Source: a virus. From it: a stretch of 64,000 nt of DNA. A model generated the notes under the pieces. That model did no database searches and had not been told where the DNA came from. It worked only from the letters and a program-made list of their open reading frames with translations. Where the stretch lies: positions 32,001 through 96,000 of the IMG/VR virus record IMGVR_UViG_3300045988_117466; one strand, 5' to 3'. This document shows, piece by piece, positions 4,192 to 58,307 of the stretch. The translations under genes and the position numbers were made by a program. How positions within the stretch are numbered: the stretch's first letter is position 1; each line of letters starts with the position of its first letter.

Positions 4192-5326
4192 GTTGATATT
4201 GACTCACAAAAGAATCGTAGAGAACAAATTATCTCTGCTGTAAAAGATCGAAAAGGAGAAAGAAGAGTATTAAATTGTTGTACATTCAAAACAGAAGGTA
4301 GCAAATCGGCTATTTTAACTTCATGTAGAGCTTTAGGAATTGATCCAGATACTTCTAGTTATTTGGCTGGAATGGTGCCAGTAACAAGAGGTGCTACATG
4401 GAGTTTACATGATTGTATATACGGAAACGAAGAAAAAGAACGAGAAGCAGTGCCGGGGTTTGAGAATGAAATGAGAAGTCATGATCAATTACTTGATATT
4501 GCAATGGGAATTGAAGGACTAATTTGTGGAAGATCTATTCATGCTTCTGCAGTATATGTCTTTAATGAAGATTTTATTGCTCACAATGCTCGAATGAAAG
4601 CCCCAAATGGAGTGTTAACCACTCAGTTTAATATGGCTGATTCAGATGAGTGTGGTGGGTTAAAGATGGATTTCTTAACGATTGAAGCGCTTGACAAGAT
4701 CCGCCTGACAATGGAACAGCTCATTGATGCAGGGTATATGGAATGGCAAGGATCTTTAAGAGAAACGTATGATAAATATCTTCATCCAGATGTTCTTGAT
4801 TATGAAACTAGAGAAATGTGGGATTGGGTAGCAGAAAACAAAGTTGTGGATCTGTTCCAGTTTAATACACAGACTGGGTTACAGGCCGCAAGGCGTATCC
4901 AACCTCATAGTTTAGAAGAATTGGCTGCAGCAAACTCTATTATGAGACTTATGGTAACAGAAGAGGGAGCTGAACAGCCGATTGATACTTATATTAGATT
5001 TAAAAATGATATTGGCCAATGGTATGACTTGATGAAAACGAAGTATCATTTGACTGATCATGAAATTGAAATTTTAGAGAAATACCTCAAATCCAATTAT
5101 GGTGTAGGTGATACTCAGGAAATTGTAATGGAAATCAGTATGGATAAAGAGATTGCTGATTTTAGTGTTGCTGATAGCAATAAGCTGAGGAAAAGTATTG
5201 CAAAGAAGAAACCAGCTTTACAGCAAGCAATGAAAGAGCAATTTTTTGAGAGAGGAAAAGAAAACCATGCTTCAGATAATCTGTTGAACTACGTTTGGAA
5301 AGAAGTTGTAGGGAAACAGCTTGGGT
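4192..5326 (+). CDS. dnaE: DnaE exon 2
   Basis: VDIDSQKNRREQIISAVKDRKGERRVLNCCTFKTEGSKSAI... matches the polymerase core that follows PDIDIDF. The exon ends ...KQLG plus the first base of a Tyr codon. Confidence 0.8.
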
Positions 5327-5577
5327 TAAATGAAGGCTCAAGTAAAACTCAGGAAACACAAGCAAAAGTGGTGTCTGTTGTATACAGGCTAACGGTGGAC
5401 AACCAGTATTGGTCAATACCGTGCCGAGCTTAATTGAAGGTGTAGAGACTGAAGTAGGCAGAGATTAGCACTGTTGAATGCGCTGAGATAGGGTGATCAA
5501 TGTCTGAAGCAATAAATATGATCACTCAAGATAGAGTCCAATCCCTTTAAAATACTAGGTAACTAGGGGTATTAATG
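5327..5577 (+). mobile_element. ORF-less group I intron 2 in dnaE (251 nt)
   Basis: P1 pairs exon CUUGGGU with intron GCUCAAG (5336-5342), with U.G at the splice site. P10 pairs UGAA with exon-3 UUCA. The terminal base is G at 5577. The join yields GYSFSKNH, the conserved DnaE GY(G/S)FNKSH motif. Confidence 0.7.
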
Positions 5578-7016
5578 ATTCATTTTCTAAGAATCATACC
5601 TATCCATACAGTGCTATAGGATTGCAGGAGTTAAATCTTGCATACCATTATCCGATTATTTATTGGAATACAGCTTGCTTAACCGTAAATGCAGGAGCTG
5701 ATGAAGAATCCAAAGGATCTAAGCAGTCCACAGATTACGGAAAAGTAGCAACGTCTATAGCACAGATGCAGAAGAGAGGTATTAAAATTCAAGCTCCACT
5801 GATTAACAAAGCGGAATTAGGATTTAAAGCCGATGAAGAAAACAATGCAATCTTATTTGCATTAAAGAGTATTTCAGGAATCGGTGATGATGTAGTAGAA
5901 ATTATAAGACAAGCAAGACCATTTTCTTCATTTGAAGATTTTTATGAAAGAATGGTTGCTACAAAGCTGGTCAAAACAGGTCAGGTAATTCAGTTGATTA
6001 AAGCAGGTTGCTTTGATGAATTTGATGAAAATAGAGTAGATTTGCTTTACACGATCGTAAGATTATGTAAATGTAATTTAATCTCAAGTCTGACTAAATC
6101 ACAATTAAATCGTATGCAGGAATTACATTTTACATATCCAGAGCTTAATCTTATTCCAGATGAGGTTTTAGACGGGATTCAAGTATACAATTTCTCACAG
6201 TACGTAAAAGAATTGAAAGTTGTAAAGAAATATATTGATCCATCAAGAAAGATGTTGAAGTGTGGCTATCATGATGAAATCATTGAACTAGACAATAGAG
6301 CAATGCAATTTTTCATAAATCGCTACACAGAAGATTCTATCTATGATGTTAAAGATGAGCATTACTTGATTTACAAAAAGAAATTCAATAAAGAAACTGA
6401 AAAGAAATTAGAACCCCTTAGAGAGTATCTAGCTAGTCCAAACACATTATTAAAATATAATGAAGCTCTTGTGAAAGATGAAGCCAAGAAAGTGGTTACA
6501 GGAACTATATCTCATATGGAAATGGAATCACTGTGTGTTTATGTGCATGAACATGAATTGGCAGACCTTGATAGAGATGAATTTAATATCGTCAATTTCT
6601 TTAATCTTTCAGAAGAACCAGTAGTTGCATCTACGTATAAAAGAAAGGTTAAGAGGGTTGAGAATGGACAAGAGATTCAAGAAGTCAAAGAGTTTCCTAA
6701 GTATTTCATTAGTAAGATCTGGGGAACTGTCTTAGACAAGAATAAGGATCGACATACGATTACATTATTGACCCCTGAGGGAGTTGTAAATGTGAAATAT
6801 ACTAAAGGAGCTTTCCTACATTATAACAAGAAGACCTCAATGGAAGAGTCTTGGTTCAAGAGAGGTCAAATGATAATGGTTACGGGGTATCGCAATGGCG
6901 ATATGTTCAGATGCTATAACTATGGAGACACAATCTTCAAACATACTACATCATTGATTACAAACATCGGAGAGAAAGGAGTAGAGGTAATGACAGAAAG
7001 GATGAGAGAAGCATGA
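5578..7016 (+). CDS. dnaE: DnaE exon 3
   Basis: (Y)SFSKNHTYPYSAIGLQELNLAYHYPIIYW... continues the conserved DnaE region. An HhH-like GIGDDVVEII segment and an OB-like C-terminus follow. The three exons total 1327 codons in frame. Confidence 0.8.
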
Positions 7017-39981: not shown

Positions 39982-40815
39982 TTAAAAAGCTCCAACCTTC
40001 TTAGGTTCGAGCCACTTGATTTTTATTTTGCAACGACCTGTAATTTCAATCCGATTTTCTCCCGGGACAAGTCGTAGCCAATATAATTTTTGTACAGTGT
40101 CCATCTTGAACACATTTGATAATACAATTCCTTTTCCATTCAGCTTAATAACTTGATGCTGACAATTGATCTCATAAGTACCTTTCGTATCCCATAAGTG
40201 CATTGTACTGTTATTGTCTGAATGATTTGTGATTTGAAGATCTGTCCAAAGCTCAGGGCTTTCAACTTCAATAATAGGATAAACATATTGTTCCAGCTCA
40301 TCTGATCCACAATCAAGAACTAAAGATCCATTATGATTAGGTGTTTCTAGTTTGTTTGTTAGGTCAAATAAATTACTTTCTTTTTCTACAAATCCATATG
40401 GTGCATTACACTCGAAGTCAACTTTTAAACCAGCAATTCCTCCAGCAAGAGCAGGAGTGACCTTAGTAACAATGGCATAATAAATGACATCATTCTTGCT
40501 ACCATCACAACCATAGAACTCTAATTTTCTATAGCTCTTAGGACTTGTTAACCACCTAGTAACTTCAGATACTTCATTTTCAGTAAATCGTTTCTGATCT
40601 TCATGAAGAAGAGTAATCTGGAATCCAAGTTTTCCTGAATATTTTGTATTATAGGCATGATAGATGTTACGATTCATAGTAGTTGAACCGTTTACGATCT
40701 CTCTATCAAGACTGAATGAATCTTCGGATTTGTCAAGATATCCAATGATCATTTTATGTGAAAAGTCCGATAGACTTTTATTGTTATAAGTAAAACTTAC
40801 TGCATTTGAATACAT
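39982..40815 (-). CDS. distal tail protein (Dit-like)
   Basis: Its position between the TMP and Tal genes, its size, and the RBS AAAGGAGACTTT. Confidence 0.6.
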   Translation of the reverse strand: MYSNAVSFTYNNKSLSDFSHKMIIGYLDKSEDSFSLDREIVNGSTTMNRNIYHAYNTKYSGKLGFQITLLHEDQKRFTENEVSEVTRWLTSPKSYRKLEFYGCDGSKNDVIYYAIVTKVTPALAGGIAGLKVDFECNAPYGFVEKESNLFDLTNKLETPNHNGSLVLDCGSDELEQYVYPIIEVESPELWTDLQITNHSDNNSTMHLWDTKGTYEINCQHQVIKLNGKGIVLSNVFKMDTVQKLYWLRLVPGENRIEITGRCKIKIKWLEPKKVGAF

Positions 40816-40870
40816 AAAGTCTCCTTTCTAAAAAATTATCCTGTAAGATGTACAAACTTGTTTTTTAACC

Positions 40871-40899
40871 TTTACTTTTGGAAGTTATTGTCATATAAT
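40871..40899 (+). promoter_or_regulatory. candidate plus-strand promoter overlapping a palindrome
   Basis: TTTACT, a 17-nt spacer, then TATAAT. The palindrome TGTCAT-ATA-ATGACA is centred on the -10. Confidence 0.3.
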
Positions 40900-41204
40900 G
40901 ACATTATTCGTATTTATATACGATGCCTTGAAGGATATGTGGTAGGAAGGGGCATGTCGAGTGCTAAGAACATTACTTGTCGTGATTAGTGTGGCTGCGG
41001 ATATTGCTAGCATAGCCTCACTCGTATTAACTGTACTCCAGTAACAAAAGATGATACATAGTTGTACGGAAGCAAAAGATTTTTGTATTTGACTCATAAT
41101 ATCTACATACCTTTTTTGCCCAATTGGTGTGCCGGATACTAGAAAGAAAACCCACGTAATAGATTAGGCGAAGATAATACAAAACCTGCTGCTTTAAAAA
41201 ATAA

Positions 41205-41233
41205 TTGAATCAATTCACGATATGTGCTATGAT
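41205..41233 (+). promoter_or_regulatory. candidate plus-strand promoter (extended -10)
   Basis: TTGAAT, a 17-nt spacer, then TGCTATGAT. Confidence 0.45.
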
Positions 41234-41239
41234 GATATT

Positions 41240-41487
41240 GACAAGTAAAGTTAAGACATGAGCTTAGCCACTTCAAACCAAATTCAGTAAGAATGGGCAT
41301 CTTACAGGAATTTGAATGATGATTAAAGGATAGTAAAAGGAGGTTACAAGGAGATTAATACTTTGCACTTATCCCGATTGGGAATCTTCCCTTTAACGGG
41401 TTAATCCAATCATCACTGTGAATTTAATTAAACAAATTCACCCATGAGAGAAGACACTCACTATTTACAGTGGGTGTCTTTTTCTTT
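41240..41487 (+). ncRNA. candidate structured non-coding RNA, antisense to the tail operon; a longer ~580-nt form from the 40871 promoter is possible
   Basis: No ORF longer than 13 codons has an RBS. Hairpins are GTGAATTT/AAATTCAC (41418-41441) and the terminator hairpin. The element is bounded by a promoter and a strong terminator. Confidence 0.35.
41451..41487 (+). terminator. rho-independent terminator (plus strand)
   Basis: An 11-bp stem AAGACACTCAC / GTGGGTGTCTT with loop TATTTACA, followed by TTTTTCTTT. Confidence 0.7.
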
Positions 41488-41491
41488 ACTT

Positions 41492-41710
41492 TTATAATAA
41501 ATTTCCATCCCTCATAGAAGCAATTTCTTCCTTAATGTACATAGACTTCATTTTAGGAGTCAGCTCATCAAAAGGAGTTAATCCTTCATCATCCATATAG
41601 TTCATCAGAGCTCCCAGTGAAATTGAATACAGTCTATTCCTGTATTTCATTCGCATAACTCCGATTAATAAAATTCCAATAACAAGTAATAATAATAAAT
41701 TAATTTCCAT
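41492..41710 (-). CDS. small single-pass membrane protein (72 aa)
   Basis: The ATG at 41710 follows TGGAGGAAATT. TM helix LLLLLVIGILLIGV. Confidence 0.5.
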   Translation of the reverse strand: MEINLLLLLVIGILLIGVMRMKYRNRLYSISLGALMNYMDDEGLTPFDELTPKMKSMYIKEEIASMRDGNLL

Positions 41711-41722
41711 AATTTCCTCCAA

Positions 41723-41756
41723 TTTTAAAAAGAGCCCATGCTTTCACATAGGCTCT
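41723..41756 (-). terminator. terminator immediately after the tape-measure stop codon
   Basis: Minus strand: AGAGCCTATG / CATGGGCTCT (10 bp, one mismatch) with loop TGAAAG, followed by TTTT. Confidence 0.5.
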
Positions 41757-41759
41757 ACA

Positions 41760-44700
41760 TTATTTACCGATCGTAGGTTTACGACCAATTTTGTGATATT
41801 CTTTTAGTTTGTTAGCTTGCTCTTGATCATAAACCTGTTTTGCAACAACCTTAAGATCATTCAGAACACTCTTATCAACCATGCCTCCAGATTCTACTTT
41901 GATCAATGCATCATAATAAGAAGAGAAGTCTCCAGTACCAGTCATAATATCTTTTGTCTTAGAGGCTTTAACAACTGATTCAGAAATCTTAACAGCTTGT
42001 TTTAGCACATCAGATGTTTCTGGCTTCAGTAAGATTTCGTCTCTACGGACAGTAGCAATACCGTGATCATGATTACTTTGGATTACACCATTAAGTTTAG
42101 AAATTGGTATTACATCATCAATGACACCACCGTTTCTTACACCTGCATTTTTCAGAGCTTTTAAGATTTTATTTGATTGAGCTTGAGTATATGTTTTCCC
42201 CTTAGCTAAATAAAATTCTTTACCCTTCTTAGAGTTTTTGCTAGTAATTACTCCGAGTTTTCTACCAAGGTCTCCCATTGGGCCTGGATTGTGTACAACA
42301 TCATAACCCTTACTGGCTAAATAATTATTTAGAGGAGACCAGCTTTTAAGCTGAGCTTGAGTATAAGGAGTTCCTGTGTGGAATTTTAATCCTAATGACT
42401 TAGCTTTCTTTTGAGCAGGAGAAAGTTGAATTGTAACACTGAAACTTACTACAATTCCATTAGCCGATCTACACGTTGGAGTAATTGTTCCCTCATTGTC
42501 GCCTTTTGTGGCTGTAATAGTACATGAACTACCAGAGCCTGACATTGTTACATATCCAAGGCTGTTAGGATACCAAGAAAATGATTGTCCAGCTCCATCT
42601 GGAGGAACAATATCAGAAACAGTAACAGTCTTACTTTCTCCAGGGGCTAAAGTAATAGATGCTGGGCTAACACTGAAAGACATAAGATTATGTGCCTGTT
42701 GTTCGGGTGTTTTCATAGAACCACTAACACCACTAGCATTTCCAGTTTCAACTTTTGAAGAATCAACCTTAGAACCCGTAATACCAGTTGTACCAGTTAC
42801 ATTGGTATCAGGATTTGCAACATTATTAGTCACAGAGCTGTTCTTGTTCTGAGTATCTTTTGCGTTCTGTTCAGGTGTCTTGCCATTAGCAGAGCTATTG
42901 TATTCAGAATGATATAACTCACTTAGACCATTAATAAGTCCAGAATTAATAGCAGTGTCATTAATCTTCTTAAAGACATCAGAATAAGAATCTCCAACCT
43001 GTTTTAAGAACTTGCTAATAAGCTTAGATTGTTCATCCAGAGAACCGCTTAAAGATTTAAGCTGTTTATCCAAAGACTCTTGTAATTTTTCAGTCAGATC
43101 ATCGTATCCTTGGGATTCCATAGAATATTGATGTTCTTTCTTAGTGTCATCCATCTGTTCCTGGGCATCAGCAATTTGAGCATCTAATTTAGCTCTTTGT
43201 GCTTTTGCAGCTTCTCCTTCGACACCCTCTAAAGCAGCACGCTGAGCTTCAAGTGCTTGCAAATCTTTTGTCTGACTCTTGATGTTTTTGTCGTAATCGT
43301 AGTATTCTTTCTTACGACTCAATGCCTCTTTACGTTTATTAATGACTTTGACGAGAGCATCAACTTCAGCTTGCATCGTTGTCTTACCAAGTTCTACAAT
43401 TTGATTCTTATAGTCATTGGTATTTGTTGCAGCCTCACGAAGTTGTTTGTTGATTTCAGCTAACTTACTTTCAAAAGTGGCATCGCCAACCATTCGTTTA
43501 CCATTCTCGTCAAAAGTATCATGTAATTTATAGAGAGCATTTCTTTGCTCCATAAGATCAGCCATGTTTTGTTGGCCTTGACGAACATTATCGCTCAAAA
43601 GAGCAATTTTAGCTTTACCGTCTGTAGTCAACTTACCTGTGTCAGGATCGTTTAAGTAATCCTGATTCAGCATATTCATAAGATCGTTATTCTCATCGAT
43701 ACGAGTATTTCTCTTATCAATCTTACGACTGCTTTCATCAAGAGGGATCATAATAGCTTCTTGACGTAACTGTTCATTCTTTTCATCTAAAGAATAATTC
43801 TCTTCACGCCTTGAATACCAATCATCATAAAGCTCTTTGTATCTTTCAGAATCCTTAGCAACCTTATTCATCAGTTCCTGATCAGTTTTCATGATCTCAG
43901 CATTGACAGCAGCTCTGTCATTATTTCTAGCAATCTGATCAGTTTTTGACTGTTTAGTAGCATAGTCGCCATGAGCTTCAGCCATAGAAGCAGTATGTTC
44001 TAAAGCAGTAGCAGCATGTTCAGCTTCATCTGCAAGTCTTGTCAATCTATCAATTTTGATCTGATCAATTTCTTTTCTCACATTTGCAATAGCAGTATCA
44101 GTATCAACAATATTATTCTTAAAAGTTTGAATCTGAGCTTCATATGTATTCTTTTGTTCATCTGTTAAGATTCCCTTTTTCTTAGCCTTATCATACTCTG
44201 CCTGATATTTATTCAATTCTTGTAGCTGAATATTTTTCTGATTCTGATATTGCTGAATCTGATTGTTTAAATTAGCTGTTTTATTATCAAAAGTATCTGT
44301 CCCTTGAGCAATATTAAGATCATTGATCTTTTGATAGTTCTCTAGGATAGCAGACGTTTTAGATGCCATAGCATCATAATAACTAACAACCTTTTCAAGT
44401 TTGGTTTGTACCAGTTCTTGTTGTTGTTTCCTAAGCTCTTCAACTTGCTGTTTGCATTGTTTAGCTTTATCATACCAGTTCTTATATTCTTCAACAGCGC
44501 TACGAATCTTATCATTACTAATAGTTTTGATATCAATAGACCCGTTACGTACTTTCTTGAAATAAGATTTTAAAGCTTTTTGGTTCTTAGCTTTTGAAGC
44601 TTTTTTTGTTTTAGGAGCTTTCTTAACTGCTTGTTTCTCAAAGCTTTCATAGAATTTCTTATATTTCTTATAGCCTTGATTATTAGCAGTGATAGAAGAA

Positions 44701-45189
44701 CCAACACTCTTTAAAGCTTCATCGTAATCATTAACAGCAGAAGTAAGATCATGAACATTTTCTGCTTTAGCTGTCCAAAGATCAGTAGCAGCAGAAAGAT
44801 TTTCAATCTTTACTTCAATGAAATCAAAAGCTTTACCTATCTTATTAAGATAATTTTCAAGAGCTGATTTCTTAGATTTGGTTTTCTTCTTACCATTCCC
44901 AGAACCAGACTTACCAGAACCGGTTTTAGATTTACTAGAAGAAGTAGTTTTCTTCTTTTTACCTACAGTAGTTTTACTACCATTAGATTTAATTTTAATT
45001 CCAGCAGAGTTAGCATGAGCAGATCCATGAGCAAATGCTCCTTCACCACCAACAATCTTAGCTCTACTTCCAGTTTTTCCTTTGTTTAGGAGTTCCTTTG
45101 TTTGTAGGTGATTAAATACTATATCACCACGTTTGAGGTTCACAAATTCTGGGCCTTGAGACCCTACTGTAAACCATCTATTACCACGT
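41760..45189 (-). CDS. tape measure protein, exon 3
   Basis: The frame is open from 45188 (RGNRWFTVGSQGPEFVNLKRGDIVFNH...), upstream of the GTG called by the ORF track, and has no RBS. Coiled-coil rich, with a Big_2-like segment. Confidence 0.75.
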
Positions 45190-47154: not shown

Positions 47155-47542
47155 ACATTTTCCCTCCATAATTTATTTATAAAGCAATTATACATTATTT
47201 GACATGTTTTTCATAGAGAGAATATTTGTTTATCATATTTATCAGGTAATTTATCATTTCGATTTAAACATTACTGTACCGCCATTAGCTTGCGGCTCTA
47301 CTCCTCATAAGAGGATAGTCGTTGAACCTTATCCTATTCGGATCTTGGCTGCTGATTGTCCATTGTAGCAGAAGCAGGGGATTTAACCTCGCTTCCATAT
47401 AATTAATTCTTTTTACTTTCGTAGCGTTCACATCTAGGCATATTTCATCCTTCTGTTGTAGCTTAATTATCTTTAAGACTTTCCAGCAATTAGATAAATT
47501 TTCACATATGTATTACTACATAAGGTCGCATATGTGGTTTAT

Positions 47543-50500
47543 ACGACAAGTTCGTCTCCTAATTCTCCTGTAAGAGCTCGTTCATCTTGTTTTAATCCCC
47601 AATCGCCACCATTAGCATGAGCATCTCCAGCAGATGATTTGAGCTTATCCGTTTTCTCTTGTAAATATTTGTTCTTTTCAGCCTGCACAACAGGATTAAT
47701 TTCTGATAAATCAGAGATTTTTGTTGTTCCCATCGCAAGAGCACGGCTTCCAAGCTTCTTAATTGTTCCGTGAGCAAAAGCACCAAATTCTTCAATATCA
47801 TCAAGCTCATTGTCGTACCAGTCTGTTAAGTCATCAACAGTACCTTGAGCGAAAGCATTTGAATATGGAATGAAAGATCCGTGTGCATTTGCTGTACCAT
47901 GGGCTTTGCCTTTCTTTTTTTTCTTTCCTGAGCTTTTCTTACCTCCTGAGGGCTCAGAAGGAGTACTACCAGTAACGAAATCAACAATTCGAGTGATATG
48001 TTTTGCTGCCCATCCTGCGATTGTTCCATCAGCAAGAGAGGTGTCCGCCTTAAGTTGTGCAGTGTTTGTAACTTTTTGGCTTTTCCATTCCTGAACTTTT
48101 TGATTCGCTTCAGTAATATCTCCTTTAAGATGTCCGGTTTTATCAACCTCAATCCCAAGGTATTCTAAAAGCTTTTGATTAGCTTTAGAAGCATCTACGT
48201 CTAATTTTCCTTCTTTGTCAATTGGAATATTTAAAAAATCAGCTATTTCTTTGGTGGCTTTTTTAGTATCTGCATCAACTTTAACGGTTGTAGACTTCTT
48301 TCCGCCTTTGCCAAGATTATCAATATCTTGTTTTGCCTTTTTGGTATTAGCCTTTACTTCAATAGTAACTTGACCTTTTTTCTTATGTTTATTGTATTCA
48401 TCAACAAGACGTTTAATCTCTTTATCAATCTTATCATTGCCAGTTTTTTCTACGGTATTATCTTTGCCAACCTTAAGTCCAGATTTTAACTTATTAAGTT
48501 GAGTGTTTAATCCAGATTTTGTTTTGATTTGCTTTCTAAAAACACCATTATCACTTTTGCCACTGACCATATTGGCAGTTTCTTTTTCAAGTTTAGATAC
48601 AGTTGTGTTTAAATTTTTGATTCTGCTTTTTAATTTACTTTGAGCTTCATTAAGTTTTTTCTTTGCACTTGCTTTATCATCGTCAGTTTTAGCATCTTTC
48701 CAAGTATCATAAGCATTGCTATAATCCTTTTGAGCTTTCTGTACAGAATCTCTAGCAGATTTAACTTTTTGATAAGAATTTTTCTTCCAGGATTCATATT
48801 TTTCGGTAGAATCTATAGCGTAATGGTTTTTGTCAGCTGTTGATTTAGCATTTGTAATAATTGAGTTACCATATTCAAACGCCTCTTCAGAATACTTATT
48901 ACCATATTTGTTTACAAGCTTTTTATCATTGGAATCAACAGCTCCTTCAAATTTGCTTTCTGCATCTTTAAATTCAGCCTTATCCTGAGCAATCTCAATC
49001 TCAAACTTTAACTTCTTGACCATCTCATCTGGGATATCTTCGCCAGCGTTTTTCAGTTTAAGAATCTGCTGTCTGTAATCCTCAATCTGTTCTCCTAATG
49101 CTGTTTTACCAGCACCATCTTTCATATTTTTCCATTTATCAACCAGTTGGTCAACATAACTTTCAGCTTTTTCGTACTGTTCTGTAACAGATTTAAAATC
49201 AATCTTACCACCATAATCTTTTAAACGATTCAGTACAGCTTCGAAAGGTTCAATACCCATACCCATTGCTTTAGCGGCAGTAGCAGTATTAGTGATCTTT
49301 CCAGAATATGTACCTTCAGCAGTTTTCTTTAAAGTACCAAAATCAGTATTAGCTTTTTGGGATTTGGCAGATAAATCATCTAAGAATTTAACCAGACCGC
49401 TATCATCAGAAGTAAAATACTTAGTAGTCTTAGCCCATGTCTTATCAAAAGTAGCAGCATCAGTCTTACCAGATGAACTCATAACACTTGTCAATGTTTT
49501 GAAATCATCTGTTCCAATAAGTCCTTTGTCACGTTCTTTCTTCTGAGCATTGAATGCTTCACGCATTGCTAAGTAAGTATCACCAGAGTCAGCTGTTTCT
49601 TTTGCTTGAAGATAATCACTCCAAGTAGACTGAGAGTTTGCCTGATTGATTAATTTAAGACGCTCTTTCAACTGATCAAGACTACCTGTCCATTTCTCAG
49701 TTTTAGAATTTAAGATATCAAAGGCTTGAGATGCTTCAGTAAGATTCAAACCATCAATGAAAGATTGAGTATCTTTATTATCACCAAGCTTTTCCTTGAT
49801 ATCTTCAATCATTGATTGAACATCTTTACCATCTTTTAAAAATCCTTCAAAATTTCCTTTATCGTCTAATTTGAAATCAACATTAAAAGAATCAGCCAAA
49901 GATTTGTTTAATTGCTCAATACTAACCCCATCATCTGTGGCAGCCTCTTTAAGCTTATCATAAGCATCTTTGGTATTATTGAGCCAATTCTGAACACCCT
50001 TGTTACTAGATTTATCATAGCTTTTAATAAACTTATCAAGAGCTCCTTGTGCTTTATCATCTTTAGCAAATTTCTTTGCTGCAGCAATAGTATTTTCTCG
50101 TTGTTCCTTGACCCAATCTTTATCTTTTAGATTATCTCTAGTCGCAGTATCTATGTTATAAGTATTAGATCCTAATCCTGTAAGGAAGCTTTGAGCACGA
50201 CTACCCAATTTATTATAATCAGTAATACTACCTGGCAATGAAGTGGCAATATCTTGATTGTATTGATCAAGAGCCTTTTGGGTTTTAGTAAGCCCAATTT
50301 TATATTTTTGAGCATAACCTGAGATTTTAGCGATTTCTTCACTAAGATCAGTTCCCTTAGGTAAATAGTCTTCAGTTTTATCCAAGATCTGCTTATATGA
50401 ACCAATAAATTTGTTCATGTCAGCTTGTTTGTATAAATCGAAGGTTTGATCCTTTGGTAATTTCAACACATCTTTGGCAGCCTTGTTGAAAGCAGTAGTT

Positions 50501-51531
50501 AACTGGCTGGTTTTATCGCCTTGCAGACCGTTTCTTAACTGAGTAGTTAAGGTGTCCATGTCGTTGCCCCAGAACTTATCAACACCAGTTCCAGAAGCTT
50601 TCTTAACATTCTCTATGTTACCTTCAACTAACTTGTCCCAAGTTTCATCAGAAGCATATTTCTTTTGTGCGCTTTCTTGTTTCTTCTCCTGAGATTCAAT
50701 CGCTTTGTCCATCAATCCAGATGTTTTAGCAATTGCATTTCCTTCTGCATCATATCCTGAAATAAGAGAAGGAGTAGTATCTAAAATTTCCTTGCGGATA
50801 CTTAAGAATCTCTCATAAGAAGAAGTATCTAAACTGATGTTATTACCGTATTCGTCTACACCTTTGGATAAAGATTCAAATTCTACTTTATTCCCTTTGA
50901 GAGTGGAAATATTACTTTGGACATCAGACATTTTGTCCTGATAAGTGCTACGGGTTTTATCAGCTTTTTCTACCTTATCTTTGTCATAAGTAGCAGCTTT
51001 CTTAATGTTTTCAATTCCTTTAGAAAGAGCACTTCCTGCAAATTCCATGATTAGACTTGCACCTAATCCTAATAACACATTTGCGGCAAAAGCACCAGCC
51101 TTAGCAGCTATGCCAGAAGCTTTAACATTTTCCACGAAACCTGCTAATCCACCTGCGGCAGATTGAGCAATGCTACCAGATTTTTCAACCTCTTTGTTGA
51201 ATTCTTCAAGACCTTTTCCATAACTATTTTTCTTATCACTAAGATCATAATTATTTTGCTTAGCTTGACCGTAAAGAGTACTAGCTGTATCACGACCTTT
51301 TTCAGTCTTCATTTCATCCTGAAGTCGCTTAAACATGTCCTCTTTTTCTTTGGTAGACTTATTACCAAAGATTTCAGGAACCATGCTGTTACTAAAGAAA
51401 TCCTGCAATCTACTTTGATCAGACTGCATATTCTCATAATTAGCCTTACGTCTTGTAGGACTAAGTGCATTCAGAATAGCACTACCAATTGGAAATTCAT
51501 TTTTACCAGTTTCTTTATTGTACTGTACAAG
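47543..51531 (-). CDS. tape measure protein, exon 2
   Basis: No ATG or RBS at the 5' end. Gly/Ala-rich hydrophobic segment (AAGGLAGF...AANVLLGLGASLIMEFAG), long coiled coils, ending ...GELGDELV(V). Confidence 0.7.
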
Positions 51532-51901
51532 CAAACTGTTTACTCAAGGGCAGGGAAATACCCTATTTTCACACTGGTAAAATATGTATTTGACAATCAC
51601 TAATGCAATATTCTATACTAATTATGTAACAAGAAATATGTATCATATCTCAAAGTAATAACACACATGGGGCTCACAATTCAGTGAGCCTTTTGTGTAT
51701 CTGAAATTAAAGGAGAAGAGAGGTTCATAAAGATACCTCTTTTTCGCAATTAACCTTGCAATATTTGGAAACATAAGTTATAATTAGAAACATCATGGAA
51801 TAATTAGTTCCCCAATTAATTATTTTCATACTAAAGGCATTCCTAGGAGGTAGGGATGCCTTTTCTCCATTTATGGGGTAACGATTCGTTCACCCATCAA
51901 A

Positions 51902-53600: not shown

Positions 53601-53767
53601 ATTAAATTCTCCTTTTCTTCAGAAAGGTGCACCAAATGGCATAGAACAGATGGTGCTGATGATTTGCTTATCCTTCTATGCATATATGGCTAATTTACTA
53701 CCCCTTTAAAACACCAGGCTCTACCTAATGTTTTAAGACTCAATTAATGTGGTAAGTCTGCTAGAGC

Positions 53768-53796
53768 AGTATAAAAAGAGTATTAAATTATGTTAA
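53768..53796 (-). promoter_or_regulatory. candidate promoter inside the intron, upstream of the Bro-N gene
   Basis: Minus strand: TTAACA, a 17-nt spacer, then TATACT. Confidence 0.35.
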
Positions 53797-54233
53797 TGAG
53801 TATTTATAATATATCATATAAAATTCATTTCCCTATGTGCAAGCATGTTTCCATGCTGATAATTTTCTAGCGGCACATTCGCATACAGTTCTGATCATCC
53901 CTTTCTGATGTCACTCGTAAGGTGAGTTAACCAGATTCCCATTATGATCGATGGACGTTCCTCTAATATAGAGGCTTCGCTGCGGATTCTGTATAAATAT
54001 TGATCTTATTACTATATCTTAGGAATTACCCCTTGCCCTTAATACATCACTGTACTAAGTTAGTAATCAATATCGTTTAACAGTTCCCGTACATAAATTA
54101 TCAAAAAGTATTTCAGTTTCGGTTGTTTTCTAAGCAATCTCTTATTTGTATCACCATTTCGATACAAACTCGTTCTGTGTTACCACTAGATTGCTCTGGG
54201 CATTGTACATGAGGACAACTGATAATTTGCCCT

Positions 54234-57200
54234 ACCCAGCTTTCCTTTCGCTCCTGCGACTCCTAAAGCACCCATAAAGGCTGTTCTAAGAAGCCCAGCT
54301 TTAGTTACTAAATTTGTTATTTGAGTTCCAGCATCTACAAGTCCTTTGATAAAATCAGAAGAAATAGAAGTGTTCCACATTTCTTGGAAACTTGCTGTCA
54401 GCTGATCAACTTTACCTTGGATGGAATCAAGTTGAGTTTCGTTTTCACGAAGAGCTGATCCTTCTGAGTTTTGTGTTTCGTTGTAGACTTTTTCAAGCAT
54501 CTCTGGCTTCTGTAAAATACTGGCAACAATATTAGCTCTATTTTTTCCTGCAATTTTCTCTAAAATAGAAGCTTGTTTAAGGTCACCACCATCGGTAGAA
54601 CCAATTTCGCTCCAGATCTTACCCAATCCAAGTAAAAATTCATATGGATTTTTATAAGATCCATCATCTTTTAATAAATCAAAGCCTTTGTAGTCGTTTG
54701 ATGCTACTTTAGTTTGATTTTTAATGAGATCTCTCAACTGAGATGTGTTCTGAATGTAACCATCAACATCTTCACCTGCTTCTTGAAGCACATTCATATC
54801 AGTGCCTCGAATTCTTAAGGATACTGTTTTTAAACCAGCTCCAACGCTCTCAGGATTTTGCACGACGGAATTCCCAACTGTAGTAAGAGCAACTGACTGT
54901 TCATAGTTAGCACCTGCCGCCTGTAAAGCACTAGCAGATCTCTGTAATGAACTAGCAATCTCATCTGATGAAATAGGCTCTAAGTTACCGATATTATTCA
55001 AAACATCAACAACATTCTCTACATCATCAGCACCCTTATCGAATCCCTGCATAATAGAAATCAATGCATTAGTAGCATCATCTACCTGCTCAAATTCTGA
55101 TACATTCATGAGAATACCTGTCCACTTAGACATCTTCTCAGAATCTTGTGTGTTATAACCTAATCTAGCCCAGTCAGCAGTAGATTTGGTTAATTCCACA
55201 GCATCTCTACCGATATCTTTACCAGTAGCATACATATCTTTTTCGACAGTAGCATAAACATCACTCGTATCACTTGTGACTTTCTTTAACTCTGTCATTG
55301 CAGCATCCATTTCTTTGATGCTTTCAATTCCTTGTTGGAATCCTTGCCATACGACATCGATTCCACCCATTGAGATCAAGTACTTACTTAACTTAGTAAC
55401 TTCTTGACCCATATCTCCAACAATTTGTCCGAACAAACTCTTATATTCAGAACGACTCTTAAGCTGTGATCTAGCAATACCAGTATCCTGATTAAAATTA
55501 ATAGCATACTTTTCAAGCTTTCCATCATCTCTTGATCTTGCTTTGATATAAGCAGCCATTCCATTTCTACCCATACTGGTTTCAAGAATGTTACTGTTTA
55601 CACCAGAAGCTCTAAATAATTCTTCAGCTTTAGCTTCATTGAAATCATTTAAGGATAATCCTTCTCCGATAACAGTTCCCTGATTGTTCTGGAGCTTAAA
55701 TTGGTTTCTAAGTCTACCATGTTCAGTAAGCTCAGCGTTCAGTCTATTAAGCTCTCTAATATCTTCCTCAATTTCTTTATTGTCAAAGAAAACATCTCCA
55801 CTATGTTTTTCTTTTAAATCTCTAATTCGGTTAACTGTAGCTTCAACCTTAGTCGCAAATTCTGTTGTATATTGTTCAAGATCTTGACTAACAATGGTCT
55901 TTGATAAAGCTCTGTCAGCAGCATTTTTAACACGATCAGATTTAGGATTAGTATTCCCTAATGCTGTACCATCGTTTGCTCCACCAACATTTCCACCGGC
56001 TAAAACCTTGTTCATGTTCTTCAAGCCAGTAGCAATCTCACCAGTAAGATTAAATTTCTTATTTAAGTTATCAACCAGTCTTGTAACTTCACGAATTGAA
56101 CTACCAATACCAGCAAAAGCACCTGCGATCTTAGCAGAATAAGCAGTAGACTTGTCAGCTAGATTAGCAATCTTATTTGTCATAGTCTCAATATCAGAAG
56201 CTTTCTTGTCTGTAAAAGACTGTCCTGTATTGAATTTAACTTTTAAATCAAGATTCTTTTTCAGATCATTGATAATCTTCTCAACAGTAACTAAATCGTC
56301 TAATACAGCATCAGTATTGATACCAACTTTAATAGGCTCAGAAGCTTTTTCTCTTAAAGAAGTAAGCTTGCTTTCGGCTTGTGTTAACTCTTCATCATTA
56401 ACATTGATGTCAATTTTTGTGTCTCCGCTGTTAGAATCCTCTTTAAATTTTTGAGTTGAAGTAATAGCTTTCTCAAGATCTTCAACATTGCCTTTAAAAT
56501 TAACCGCAACGTCAATAGCATCCTTAGAGCGAAGTTCATTTACTTGTTGAAGAATGTTATCAATATTCTCTGTATTAGCTTTAAAATTAATAGTAATATC
56601 TATATTTTCTTTTGATCTTAGTTCATTAATTTCTTGTAAAATTGTATTGAACTCGGAATCGTTTGCTTTAAGATTAACAACGATATCTTTGCCTTCGTAA
56701 GAAGCAATCTTTTCATCAACCTTAGCCAATGCAGATTCTAACTGAGAAGTGTCAGCAGTAACTTTTACAGAAGATTCTTTAGGGTGTTCACTTTCTGTAA
56801 CACTGTTTGTCTTAGTTTCAGTAACATTTCTGCTTGGAAATTCACGAATTGCATCTTTGTTTTTGCTTAACCATTCACGGCTTTCTTGAGACCAAGGAGT
56901 TTCAATAGTAGCTCCTTTTTCAGCTTTAATAGATGTGTATGTATCAACAGTTTTAACAGCTTCTTGAAGACCTTTGGCTTCCTCGGCATAGATATTTTCT
57001 CCGTTCTTAATCTTTTCATTGAATTTCTGGATATATTCTCTAGCGCTTTGGAAAGTACTGATCAGGTCTTTGTTACTCATGTCTTTCATGTCAGCAGGCA
57101 TTTCAAAATCTTTATCAACTTCCCTTTGATGGAGTTCTAATTTTTTAACTGCTTCAGATAAGAATTGTGTAATATTTTTATCAACAGCATGAGTAGTAGA

Positions 57201-58307
57201 ACCTTCTTCTGGCTGATAATTGCTTAGTATTTTACTGTAATACTCGGCTTTCTGTAATTCCTCATCGGTAAGAGTTTCACCTTTGGATTGTTTTTCCATC
57301 AGGTTCTTACTGCCGGCTTTTGCACCGTTGTATTGTTGAGGACTAATTGCTTGTCCTTCTTGAAATTTATATGGTTTACTAGAGTCAAACCCAGAAATCA
57401 AAATACCTTCTTGGGCTAAAATATCACTCCATTGTTTATTGAATTGGTTTTTAAGTTTATTGGTTACTCCTGTAGTCTTTTTGATATTTCTATCAGTGCT
57501 AGTCATAGCCTGAGTAAGAGCCTTATTAACCTGTTTAACAACATCCTCTTCGATCGGAGATAAAATATTTTTTAAGTCGATTCCCTGGGCTTGGAACAGG
57601 CTTTTATAACCTTCTGTACCTGCAAAATCAGTTTGTCCTGTTAGCAATTCTTTTATAAACTTTTGCCTAGAAGTAATAGTATTTCTTAACTCACCAGCCT
57701 GTTTGAGCATTTCATCGTTCTTACTCCAATCAGAATTTGACATTAAACCATGCAGTTCTTCAAAAGCTTTTCCAATATCTTCTTGAGCTAGCATTCCAGC
57801 CATTGCATATTCTTTAAAATCATTTAAAGAGATACCATTTTTAGAATTACCATGTAATTCGTTATATTGTGTTTTAGATTCGTTGTAAAAATCTTTATAT
57901 TTATCTTGCTTATAAGTCTTTTTTTGTACTTCGTGTACCTTAGAAGCAGCTCTTGTGGCAAGATCACTGTCCTCGTAGCTACGTTTAGAAACCTTGCTTA
58001 AATTGTCGTTCTTAATTTTTTCAAGATCATTGTAAGTAGTTTTAAGATTCTTTAACTTCTTTTCTGCATCGGCCAAATCTTTAGATTCATATACAAATTG
58101 AAAATTTGTTAATCCAGTTTTATCAATATAACTTCTGATGCTTTTAGCAACTTTATCCATAGAGGATTTATTGATATTAGCACCAATAGGTACTTGGACT
58201 TGTTTAAAACCATTTACTACTTCGCTTTTAGCTTTTTCTAAAGAGGCTTGATCAACGTCAACCCCCATAGAGGCAGTAAAAGAAATTACTTGTGTAGTTT
58301 CTGCCAT
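54234..58307 (-). CDS. tape measure protein, exon 1 (contains the TP901-type TMP core region)
   Basis: RBS GGGGGTGAAATAATAA precedes the ATG. DDATNALISIMQGF...SSDEIASSLQRSASALQAAGANYEQSVALTTVGNSVVQNPESVGAGLKTVSLRI matches the TMP core. The exon ends ...GVAGAKGKLG. Confidence 0.75.

What the first reader, a model, noticed from the sequence alone, without database searches (positions are those of the whole stretch)
40816..41491. 675-bp non-coding, helix-rich island inside the tail operon, with its own antisense promoter and terminator
All neighbouring genes are tightly packed, but between the small membrane-protein gene (41492-41710) and dit (start at 40815) there is no credible ORF.

On the plus strand, antisense to the tail genes, the following are present:
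- an extended -10 promoter: TTGAAT-17-TGCTATGAT (41205-41233)
- a second candidate promoter: TTTACT-17-TATAAT (40871-40899), overlapping the palindrome TGTCAT-ATA-ATGACA
- an 11-bp terminator hairpin with a T-run (41451-41487)

These predict RNAs of about 245 nt or about 580 nt. The region is dense in complementary segments: TCGTAT/ATACGA (40908-40923), ATGCC/GGCAT (40923-40955), CGAGTG/CACTCG (40958-41024), the palindrome CCAATTGG, and GTGAATTT/AAATTCAC.

Large ornate RNAs of the ROOL and GOLLD classes occur in Firmicutes phages and have similar sizes. I cannot confirm family membership by eye. An antisense or type I antitoxin RNA is the alternative (see the next finding).
Basis: partly seen in the sequence, partly recalled or inferred. 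Interest (0 to 1): 0.7.

Follow-up and report, generated by a model that had tools for sequence, protein, structure and literature searches.

The report
Phage toxin peptide with tandem antitoxin RNA
The "non-coding island" between two phage tail genes most likely holds a 27-residue membrane-peptide gene and, just downstream on the same strand, a small RNA whose pairing sites have co-evolved with that gene's ribosome-binding region, which is an unusual layout for a type I toxin-antitoxin-like module.

Summary
Two parts of the reading fail. The region is not ORF-free, and it is not a ROOL/GOLLD-type RNA (no Rfam match).

I compared 21 distinct versions of the island from related metagenomic phages. 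Their flanking Dit protein is 96-98% identical in all but one locus (79%), while the island DNA (compared with 300 bp of flank on each side) is only 78-92% identical. The comparison shows:
- a conserved plus-strand ORF (40961-41044, 27-31 aa, one hydrophobic helix) in at least five sequence classes, with mostly synonymous changes within a class;
- a conserved extended -10 promoter (41205-41233), predicting an RNA of about 250 nt that ends at the terminator;
- a 5' stretch of about 43 nt in that RNA that pairs with the Shine-Dalgarno sequence, start codon and first codons of the ORF, and changes together with them class by class;
- a covarying 6-bp loop-loop match between a structured 3'-UTR domain (41081-41184) and a hairpin of the RNA.

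The best explanation is a type I toxin-antitoxin-like module in which the antitoxin RNA lies in tandem on the same strand. The pairing could act in trans, or in cis as a fold-back in a read-through transcript. Transcription and toxicity are untested. I rate it a new variant of a known kind.

The parts
40871..40899 (+). Promoter P1 (-35 TTTACT, 17-nt spacer, -10 TATAAT); predicted transcription start near 40906
   Evidence: 10 of 12 consensus matches. The -10 CATATAAT is invariant in 21 relatives. Transcription has not been shown.
40908..40923 (+). 5'-UTR hairpin TCGTAT-TTAT-ATACGA of the peptide mRNA
   Evidence: Helix 1: 96.8% of cells paired; pair 135/147 is GC, GU or AU.
40939..40981 (+). 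Translation initiation region that the small RNA is predicted to cover: purine-rich Shine-Dalgarno sequence 40941-40952, GTG start 40961, and codons up to about 7, including the perfect-match core 40973-40982
   Evidence: Duplex drawings for seven representative loci covering all five classes. Helix 2 has 5 compensatory pairs.
40961..41044 (+). Small ORF, 27 aa, MLRTLLVVISVAADIASIASLVLTVLQ (GTG start): the putative membrane toxin
   Evidence: It is present at the same position in all 21 relatives as 27-31 aa hydrophobic peptides of at least five classes. Within a class, changes are mostly synonymous (pN/pS 0.11-0.50). It is the only conserved ORF in the island. It matches no Pfam, NCBIfam, PHROG or PADLOC family.
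41081..41184 (+). Structured 3'-UTR domain S2: an outer stem 41081-41088/41177-41184, an inner stem 41101-41105/41160-41164, and a hairpin 41108-41111/41126-41129 whose loop carries the docking sequence UGCCCA (41117-41122)
   Evidence: Helices 3, 4 and 5 have 9 pairs changed on both sides and are 96-98% paired.
41205..41233 (+). Promoter P2 (-35 TTGAAT, 17-nt spacer, extended -10 TGCTATGAT) with an A-rich upstream stretch; predicted start near 41240
   Evidence: ATTGAAT and T.TG.TAT.AT are invariant in all 21 relatives, while the spacer varies in sequence at fixed length.
41240..41487 (+). Predicted small RNA (putative antitoxin), about 248 nt here and 175-250 nt in relatives. It has a 5' region pairing with the translation initiation region (41240-41282), hairpin H1 (stem 41287-41292/41300-41305, loop UGGGCA at 41294-41299), a long stem H2 (41318-41324/41408-41414) enclosing a variable insert, an optional hairpin (41418-41441) and the terminator.
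   Evidence: Folded alone it gives z = -4.56. H1, H2 and the terminator are helices 8-10. No ORF is conserved in it.
41294..41299 (+). H1 loop UGGGCA, complementary to the S2 loop UGCCCA (41117-41122): the proposed kissing contact
   Evidence: Helix 6 is 97.6% paired. C-G becomes U-A in 6 sequences and U-A becomes A-U in 2. The loop sequences are listed per locus.
41448..41487 (+). Intrinsic terminator (15-pair stem followed by a T-run). In 12 of the 21 sequences (the short variants) an A-run also precedes it, which would make it bidirectional.
   Evidence: Helix 10 has a U-G pair on the plus strand in 20 of 21 sequences, which would be a C-A mismatch on the minus strand.

Best explanation
The island is a self-contained plus-strand cassette inserted, in the opposite orientation, into the tail-gene block of a distant SPbeta-like phage that encodes an integrase. 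I read it as a type I toxin-antitoxin-like module with an unusual layout.

1. P1 would make an mRNA starting near 40906 for a 27-aa single-helix membrane peptide (40961-41044). Its 3' UTR folds into a conserved domain, S2.
2. P2, about 160 bp downstream of the stop codon on the same strand, would make a structured RNA of about 250 nt that ends at the terminator (about 41487).
3. The hairpin loop of this RNA (UGGGCA) would dock on the S2 loop (UGCCCA).
4. Its first 43 nt or so would then pair with the Shine-Dalgarno sequence, the start codon and the first codons of the peptide mRNA. This would block ribosome binding and probably create a double-stranded RNase III substrate.
5. No canonical terminator separates the two units. 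Read-through P1 transcripts would therefore carry the same inhibitory sequence in cis, as a fold-back, so the peptide would be made only when the 3' part is removed or the small RNA decays.

What is shown here: the ORF, the promoter and terminator motifs and their conservation, the helices, and the class-specific co-variation of the pairing partners.

What is inferred: that the RNAs are transcribed, that the peptide is toxic, the order of binding steps, the involvement of RNase III, and the biological role. Possible roles are prophage stabilisation or competition between related phages; the second would fit the many specificity classes.
For: - **The ORF is real.** It sits at the same position in 21 of 21 variants as 27-31 aa hydrophobic peptides, each with a purine-rich Shine-Dalgarno sequence 7-8 nt before ATG or GTG. 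Within a class, synonymous changes outnumber non-synonymous ones: L004/L045 have 3 synonymous and 1 non-synonymous change, and pN/pS is 0.11-0.50. No other frame is conserved.
- **Both promoters and the terminator are conserved and on the plus strand**. GC skew is positive only within the island.
- **The RNA 5' region and the translation initiation region co-evolve.** Same-class duplexes are -24 to -34 kcal/mol with perfect Watson-Crick runs of 9-12 bp. Pairs from different classes are -8 to -28 kcal/mol with runs of 4-8 bp. In every row printed, no partner from another class beats the same-class duplexes (the printed matrices elide four columns). The drawn duplexes cover the Shine-Dalgarno sequence and the start codon in all representatives drawn.
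- **The named structure is strongly supported**. It is 97.2% paired. Nineteen pairs show changes on both sides, against 0-4 when partners are slid by 1-3 columns, and 91 such cells against 0-9. This includes 5 compensatory pairs in the long-range helix between mRNA and RNA and 2 in the loop-loop helix.
- **Strand.** Outside the terminator, G-U cells outnumber A-C cells 34 to 17, and the terminator has a U-G pair in 20 of 21 sequences.
- **The predicted RNA is unusually stable when folded alone** (z = -4.56).
- **Context.** The phage is related to SPbeta (YorL-like DNA polymerase 44% identical; integrase). SPbeta carries the type I systems bsrG/SR4 and yonT/SR6 (PMC5848175, PMC3531473). In phi3T the yomI-yomH junction is only about 98 bp, so the island is an insertion.
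Against: - There are no RNA data, so neither the transcription starts nor the RNA ends are shown.
- Toxicity is untested. The peptide matches no known toxin family, and the window's class lacks the basic C-terminus seen in the other classes.
- Covariation cannot distinguish pairing in trans from pairing in cis within a single read-through RNA of about 580 nt, and Watson-Crick helices are symmetric between strands.
- RNAalifold energies are slightly better on the minus strand.
- The single-sequence fold of the mRNA part is not unusually stable (z = +0.86).
- All 21 variants come from one narrow phage lineage, so the counted cells are not independent events. I estimate about five independent classes.
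- A same-strand tandem layout is not among the arrangements described for type I systems in the 2014 review I checked, which lists overlapping and divergent ones (PMC4147584).
Confidence: 0.6

Rival explanations
1. The peptide is not a toxin. It is a functional small membrane protein of the phage, for example a superinfection-exclusion factor or a modulator of lysis timing, and the tandem small RNA simply tunes its synthesis.
For: The ORF, the RNA and their co-evolving pairing fit any sRNA-regulated small protein equally well. No known toxin family is matched. The cassette sits among structural genes.
Against: Tight multi-site repression of the translation initiation region (Shine-Dalgarno sequence, start codon, early codons and a docking loop), a weak Shine-Dalgarno sequence, a 27-31 aa single-helix peptide, and many mutually specific alleles are the hallmarks of type I toxin-antitoxin pairs. 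These are comparisons from general knowledge and from PMC4147584. The related phage SPbeta carries such systems.
Confidence: 0.2
2. The island is one long structured non-coding RNA of about 580 nt on the plus strand. The long-range helices and the loop-loop contact are intramolecular, and the small ORF is incidental.
For: Covariation supports the helices but not their cis or trans nature. RNAalifold on the whole region recovers the long-range helix, and so does the single-sequence MFE. There is no canonical terminator between the two units.
Against: The ORF has a conserved start codon, Shine-Dalgarno sequence, length and hydrophobic character, with mostly synonymous change within classes. P2 has invariant hexamers with a variable spacer of fixed length, placed exactly where the complementary segment begins. 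No Rfam large-RNA family matches. The H2 insert is freely exchanged or deleted.
Confidence: 0.08
3. The functional RNA is on the minus strand, in one of two forms. It could be a structured intercistronic element of the tail-operon mRNA. Or it could be a cis-antisense RNA started from a -10-like TAnnAT element (reverse complement of 41156-41161) that runs across the peptide ORF, acting as a classical overlapping antitoxin or restarting Dit transcription.
For: All flanking genes are on the minus strand. Fold z-score and alifold energies are slightly better on the minus strand. The otherwise unexplained conserved block 41149-41169 reads TAnnAT on the minus strand in most classes (seen in the alignment). 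The terminator is bidirectional in the short variants.
Against: The -35 is poor (TTTTGT), the element is TATTAC in the window's own class, and the promoter scan did not report it. G-U against A-C counts favour the plus strand 34 to 17. The terminator has a U-G pair only on the plus strand in 20 of 21 sequences. A cis-antisense RNA would not need the co-varying complementarity in trans. This rival could be true in addition to the main model.
Confidence: 0.1

Closest known systems
par locus of pAD1 (Fst toxin; RNA I / RNA II), Enterococcus faecalis
   Same: Both have a hydrophobic peptide of about 30 aa. Both have an RNA antitoxin that contacts the toxin mRNA at more than one separate site: the translation initiation region plus a distant stem-loop, with a loop-loop contact proposed to come first. 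These properties of par are from my own knowledge of the system, not from a tool result.
   Different: In par the two RNAs are transcribed convergently across direct repeats and share a bidirectional terminator. Here both genes are on the same strand in tandem, and the complementary segments are inverted repeats. No Pfam or NCBIfam family of any kind matched the peptides.
hok/sok (plasmid R1) fold-back inhibition
   Same: If P1 transcripts read through, the 3' part of the RNA pairs with and masks the translation initiation region, as the fbi element does in full-length hok mRNA (own knowledge). Activation would then need 3' processing.
   Different: Sok is a cis-encoded 5' antisense RNA and acts through the overlapping mok frame. 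Here the masking sequence has its own promoter and can also act as a free RNA. The peptide matched no Pfam family.
tisB/istR-1, zorO/orzO, shoB/ohsC and dinQ/agrB (E. coli)
   Same: The antitoxin gene does not overlap the toxin gene and pairs through a short region of limited complementarity (PMC4147584, PMC3919570).
   Different: Those antitoxins are divergently transcribed and target the long 5' UTR, not the initiation site or coding sequence (PMC4147584). Here the RNA gene lies downstream on the same strand and covers the Shine-Dalgarno sequence, the start codon and the first codons.
bsrG/SR4 and yonT/SR6 of Bacillus phage SPbeta
   Same: These are type I systems carried by the phage group to which this phage is distantly related (PMC5848175, PMC3531473). 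They also have small hydrophobic toxins and structured antitoxin RNAs of 100-200 nt.
   Different: SR6 is a cis-encoded antisense RNA overlapping the 3' end of the toxin gene (PMC5848175); that SR4 has the same layout is from my own knowledge. The toxins, at 38 and 58 aa, matched nothing in my searches. The SPbeta-type junction homologous to this site has no insert.
ROOL, GOLLD, HEARO and raiA large non-coding RNAs
   Same: Phage context, a size of several hundred nucleotides, and many helices.
   Different: There is no covariance-model match even at E = 10. The region contains a conserved ORF and an internal promoter.

Membership tests
Type I toxin-antitoxin system | Small (under 60 aa) hydrophobic or membrane peptide ORF with its own translation signals | tested here: met
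   A 27-31 aa single-helix ORF with a Shine-Dalgarno sequence and a start codon is found in 21 of 21 variants, with synonymous-biased change within classes.
Type I toxin-antitoxin system | Adjacent non-coding RNA gene with its own promoter and terminator | tested here: inconclusive
   A conserved extended -10 promoter and an intrinsic terminator are present, no ORF is conserved in the RNA, and its fold is stable. Transcription itself cannot be shown with these tools.
Type I toxin-antitoxin system | Antitoxin RNA base-pairs with the toxin mRNA at a site that controls translation or stability | tested here: met
   Class-specific, co-varying complementarity covers the Shine-Dalgarno sequence, the start codon and the early codons, plus a loop-loop match. 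This is a computational result only.
Type I toxin-antitoxin system | Antitoxin encoded antisense-overlapping or divergently next to the toxin gene (the arrangements described in PMC4147584) | tested here: not met
   Both units are on the plus strand, in tandem and non-overlapping. This is why I rate it a variant rather than an ordinary member.
Type I toxin-antitoxin system | Peptide is toxic when expressed, and the RNA neutralises it | not testable with these tools
   This needs expression experiments.
ROOL / GOLLD / HEARO / raiA / riboswitch / group I intron (Rfam) | Match to the family covariance model at or near its gathering score | tested here: not met
   There were 0 hits at gathering score over 64 kb. 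At E up to 10 over 40700-41800, only unrelated families appeared, all at 20 bits or less.
Known type I toxin protein families (Fst, Hok/Gef, Ldr, TxpA/BsrG-type, holin-like toxin and others) | Profile match of the peptide | tested here: not met
   All 10 peptide variants were scanned against Pfam, NCBIfam, PHROGs and PADLOC at E up to 10. Only chance-level hits appeared.
par/Fst-type organisation | Convergent transcription of toxin and antitoxin RNAs that share a bidirectional terminator | tested here: not met
   P1 and P2 point the same way. The shared terminator is used co-directionally.

The most novel reading that the evidence does not exclude
This would be a previously undescribed architecture of RNA-controlled toxin module. 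The antitoxin RNA gene sits in the 3' region of the toxin transcript on the same strand, works both as a free RNA and as a cis fold-back, and recognises its target through three co-evolving contacts: a docking loop in a dedicated 3'-UTR domain, a 5' tail on the early codons, and a segment complementary to the Shine-Dalgarno sequence. At least five mutually specific alleles circulate among otherwise near-identical gut phages. This would suggest an incompatibility or immunity-like role in competition between related phages, rather than simple prophage addiction.
Probability: 0.3. Interest if true: 0.75.

Novelty: new variant of a known kind. Interest (0 to 1): 0.6.

Why it matters
Type I toxin-antitoxin systems are found mostly by homology or by looking for antisense overlap. 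A tandem, same-strand module with an orphan 27-aa peptide is invisible to both approaches, and gene callers skip ORFs of this size. If confirmed, three things would follow.
- A new gene arrangement and a new toxin family would be added to the known repertoire.
- It would be a natural example of several orthogonal RNA-RNA specificity classes in one genetic background. That is useful for studying how antisense specificity evolves and for designing orthogonal RNA regulators.
- It would show that large SPbeta-like phages of gut anaerobes carry such modules inside their tail operons, which raises the question of their role in lysogeny or in conflicts between phages.

Tried and rejected
- **Rfam.** The whole window at gathering score gave nothing, and the island at E up to 10 gave only chance hits. 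There are no tRNA or tmRNA genes.
- **BLAST against GenBank phages.** The island in distant mode and a 10-kb stretch in near mode both gave no match.
- **Exact-pattern scans of IMG/VR.** The H1 hairpin pattern returned only the same 15 contigs. The 5'-UTR pattern returned those contigs plus 5 others. I inspected the 5 others and they are chance matches inside coding sequence. One P2 pattern had a spacer error of one base and found nothing, so that scan was wasted.
- **Scans of reference genomes.** Dit gave no relative. The DNA polymerase gave only a 46% match in a Christensenellales MAG and a 21% match in an uncultured Clostridiales assembly. The host therefore stays unidentified beyond 'probably an anaerobic member of Bacillota/Clostridia'.
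- **Peptide homology searches.** The search for homologous proteins refuses queries under 40 aa. The search for related loci could not use the peptide alignment. The profile libraries gave nothing.
- **Other ORFs in the island.** The minus-strand ORFs of 68, 53 and 51 aa and the plus-strand ORFs of 43 and 26 aa are not conserved in relatives.
- **Small ORFs inside the RNA's variable insert.** They are inconsistent between classes (by eye).
- **Paralogues of the module elsewhere in the window.** nhmmer with four profiles found only the island itself.
- **A crude screen for other small hydrophobic ORFs** in intergenic gaps found nothing comparable, but its filter also missed the peptide itself, so it carries little weight.
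- **RNAduplex on long segments** produced uninformative long weak duplexes with z near 0. The signal appeared only when I compared the defined initiation region and the RNA 5' region across classes.
- **Strand assignment for S2 from G-U counts alone** is only about 2:1 in favour of the plus strand.
Full report
**1. What is at the coordinates**

The 676-bp gap 40816-41491 lies between Dit (39982-40815, minus strand; Pfam DUF6558 and SPP1_Dit, PHROG 'distal tail protein') and a 76-aa minus-strand ORF (41492-41722). A 1127-aa minus-strand protein lies upstream of that ORF.

- TTTACT-17-TATAAT at 40871-40899;
- TTGAAT-17-TATGAT with a TG extension at 41205-41233;
- a 15-pair hairpin with a T-run at 41448-41483.

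The number of promoter-like sites in that 3-kb scan (11) is what shuffled sequence gives (12.8 ± 3.5). The motif matches alone therefore prove nothing.

The region folds more stably than shuffled sequence on both strands (z = -3.6 and -5.8). GC skew is positive on the plus strand only within the island.

Rfam gives no hit at gathering score in the whole window. At E up to 10 on the island it gives only noise. There are no tRNA genes and no BLAST match to GenBank phages.

**2. Relatives**

Searching IMG/VR and public metagenomes with Dit gave 31 loci, of which 30 contain the complete island. Their Dit protein is 96-98% identical to the window's in all but one, which is 79% identical (L045). The island with 300 bp of flank on each side is only 78-92% identical at the DNA level.

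The loci collapse to 21 distinct island sequences, aligned as A1. The flanks are nearly fixed while the island varies, and that contrast allows the tests below.

The phage is a distant relative of Bacillus phage SPbeta. Its YorL-like DNA polymerase is 44% identical and its Dit is about 24% identical to YomH. It encodes a tyrosine integrase and an anaerobic ribonucleotide reductase.

In phi3T, an SPbeta-type phage, the homologous yomI-yomH junction is about 98 bp. The island is therefore an insertion.

**3. A conserved small ORF**

In every variant, a purine-rich Shine-Dalgarno sequence (GTAGRAAG followed by more purines) is followed 7-8 nt later by ATG, or GTG in the window's class. A 27-31 codon frame then encodes a single hydrophobic helix. 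The peptide classes are:

| Class | Peptide |
|---|---|
| A (window) | MLRTLLVVISVAADIASIASLVLTVLQ |
| B | MVDTLLTVLHNAADIANIAAFVILLIRK |
| C | MTQTLFDMLGAAANVATIVGLVLYLLHK |
| D | MRRIILDIVAIASGISTVAMLVLMLIRY |
| E | MKQTILEIVAVAGDISAIAMLVLMLIRY |
| F | MLTVFLTVLAAAGDIAGIVNATAFVISLIKK |

D and E are close variants of each other and count as one class in the pairing tests below.

Other observations on the peptides:
- Identity to the window's peptide is 33-48% across classes.
- Within a class, changes are mainly synonymous. L004/L045 have 3 synonymous and 1 non-synonymous change. pN/pS is 0.11-0.50 for the D/E/L045 group.
- By eye, the window and L001 differ mostly at synonymous sites over their first 26 codons (sequences).
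- No other ORF of 22 aa or more on either strand is shared between classes.
- The peptides match no family in Pfam, NCBIfam, PHROGs or PADLOC.

**4. A conserved internal promoter and a structured RNA**

In P2, ATTGAAT and T.TG.TAT.AT are invariant in all 21 sequences. The 17-nt spacer keeps its length but not its sequence, which is the pattern expected of a real promoter.

Transcription from about 41240 to the terminator would give an RNA of 248 nt in the window and 175-250 nt in relatives. Folded alone it is unusually stable (z = -4.56).

Its conserved elements are:
- hairpin H1 (41287-41292/41300-41305);
- stem H2 (41318-41324/41408-41414), which encloses an insert that is exchanged or shortened between variants;
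- the terminator.

**5. Co-evolving pairing with the peptide mRNA**

The first bases of the predicted RNA (41239-41248, TGACAAGTAA) are complementary to codons 5-8 of the ORF (40973-40982, TTACTTGTCG). The homologous positions are complementary in every class, although the sequences differ:

| Class | mRNA segment | RNA segment |
|---|---|---|
| B | TTACTTACC | GGTAAGTAA |
| C | AACTTTGTTTG | CAAACAAAGTT |
| D | TCATACTCGATA | TATCGAGTATGA |
| F | GTTTTTCTTAC | GTAAGAAAAAC |

An alignment-free test compared the initiation region (40938-41000) with the RNA 5' region (41236-41288) for 14 distinct combinations (the printed matrices elide four columns).
- Same-class pairs give -24 to -34 kcal/mol and perfect runs of 9-12 bp.
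- Pairs from different classes give -8 to -28 kcal/mol and runs of 4-8 bp.
- In every row printed, no partner from another class beats the same-class duplexes.

The drawn duplexes extend from the early codons across the start codon to the Shine-Dalgarno sequence in all representatives drawn, so about 43 nt of the RNA are involved.

**6. A docking domain**

Between the stop codon and P2, the mRNA 3' UTR forms a conserved multi-stem domain, S2 (41081-41184). Nine of its pairs change on both sides.

The loop of its inner hairpin (UGCCCA, 41117-41122) is complementary to the H1 loop of the RNA (UGGGCA, 41294-41299). The two loops change together:
- UGUCCA/UGGACA in class B;
- AGUCCA/UGGACU in L011;
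- AGUCC/GGACU in L045.

I estimate at least three compensatory events.

Both loops must be on the same strand to pair, because the reverse complements would be identical rather than complementary.

**7. Formal count**

For the full named structure (68 pairs, with the pseudoknotted contacts written separately), 97.2% of cells are paired. Nineteen pairs carry changes on both sides, against 0-4 when partners are slid by 1-3 columns. There are 91 such cells against 0-9. No shuffle out of 500 reaches the observed values for four of the five measures; the fifth (further pair types) is below the shuffled mean.

ATGCC/GGCAT and CGAGTG/CACTCG are window-specific, and GTGAATTT/AAATTCAC lies in a segment absent from 11 of the 21 sequences.

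**8. Strand**

Watson-Crick covariation is symmetric between strands, and alifold energies are marginally better on the minus strand. Six observations favour the plus strand:
- Both conserved promoters are on it.
- The T-run of the terminator is on it.
- The ORF is on it.
- G-U cells outnumber A-C cells 34 to 17 outside the terminator.
- The terminator has a U-G pair in 20 of 21 sequences.
- GC skew is positive there.

**9. Mechanism proposed**

The proposed order is a loop-loop contact first and then extension from the RNA's 5' end. This is inferred by analogy with par/Fst and other antisense systems, from my own knowledge. RNase III cleavage of the duplex is inferred from the Bacillus prophage systems (PMC3531473).

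No canonical terminator follows S2. Read-through from P1 would therefore give an RNA of about 580 nt in which the same segment masks the initiation region in cis. The long-range helix appears in the single-sequence MFE and centroid and in the alignment fold. This resembles hok fold-back inhibition. Cis and trans action are not exclusive, and sequence data cannot separate them.

**10. Comparison with known systems, and novelty**

The 2014 review of type I arrangements lists overlapping and divergent layouts. For the divergent ones it states that the antitoxins target the 5' UTR and do not overlap the initiation site (PMC4147584). My text searches found no description of a same-strand tandem arrangement, but absence from that library is weak evidence.

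The SPbeta systems are cis-antisense and overlap the 3' end of the toxin gene (PMC5848175 for yonT/SR6). The peptide is an orphan.

I therefore rate the finding a new variant of a known kind. I do not rate it a plain new member, because the defining arrangement feature is not met. I do not rate it categorically new either, because the logic is that of type I systems.

**11. Open points**

- The conserved unpaired block 41149-41169 reads as a -10-like TAnnAT on the minus strand. This may be a cis-antisense or restart promoter.
- It is unclear how the tail genes downstream of a terminator that is bidirectional in 12 of the 21 sequences are transcribed.
- The host is unidentified. The nearest genome hit of the polymerase is a Christensenellales MAG at 46%.
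- The reason for at least five specificity classes among near-identical phages is unknown.
- The H2 insert is shared between class A and some class C loci while the specificity parts differ. The specificity elements are therefore inherited as a unit, and the rest of the RNA recombines freely.

Noticed in passing
window 1752-7016 (+): The SPbeta YorL-like DNA polymerase is split over three ORFs (1752-3257, 4363-5433, 5622-7016). A 172-aa ORF with no Pfam match (3483-4001) lies in the first gap. No group I or II intron reached the Rfam gathering score.
   Followed up: partly
window 40839-40848 (-), 41300-41309 (+), 47566-47575 (-): The 10-mer TCTTACAGGA occurs exactly three times. One copy is just upstream of the Dit ribosome-binding site, one is the 3' half of RNA hairpin H1, and one is near the end of ORF 47539-51534. 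At up to 1 mismatch there are 14 hits against 5.4 expected, 12 of them on the late-gene strand. It could be a regulatory or late-promoter motif, or a codon-usage effect.
   Followed up: partly
window 41448-41483; L008 and L031 (A1 columns 728-763): In L008, L031 and the identical loci L009 and L039, the upper part and loop of the terminator hairpin are inverted relative to the others. In L031 the U-G wobble is moved to the other strand as well. In the 12 short variants the hairpin has an A-run upstream and a T-run downstream. It would then also terminate minus-strand tail-operon transcription.
   Followed up: partly
window 41149-41169: This conserved block is unpaired in the S2 model (AAAACCCACGTAATAGATTAGGC). 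On the minus strand it reads TAnnAT in most classes (TATTAC in the window's class), 17 nt from TTTTGT. It may be a weak minus-strand promoter. Its conservation is otherwise unexplained.
   Followed up: partly
window 41328-41406; L003, L006, L010, L012, L041: The island is mosaic. The insert inside stem H2 of the RNA is identical in L001-type class A loci and four class C loci (the window's own copy differs from these by one base). L003 (class C) carries a different insert, and classes B, D, E and F carry short ones.
   Followed up: yes
window 47170-47538, 51604-51901, 53601-54185: These are further gaps of 300-585 bp without ORFs of 100 aa or more inside the minus-strand structural gene block. 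nhmmer profiles of the island find no paralogue there. I did not analyse their content.
   Followed up: partly
window 41760-45143 (-) and 54186-58307 (-): The PHROG tape-measure match is to the 1373-aa protein at 54186-58307. The 1127-aa protein next to the island has no PHROG family and only a weak Fn3-like hit.
   Followed up: no
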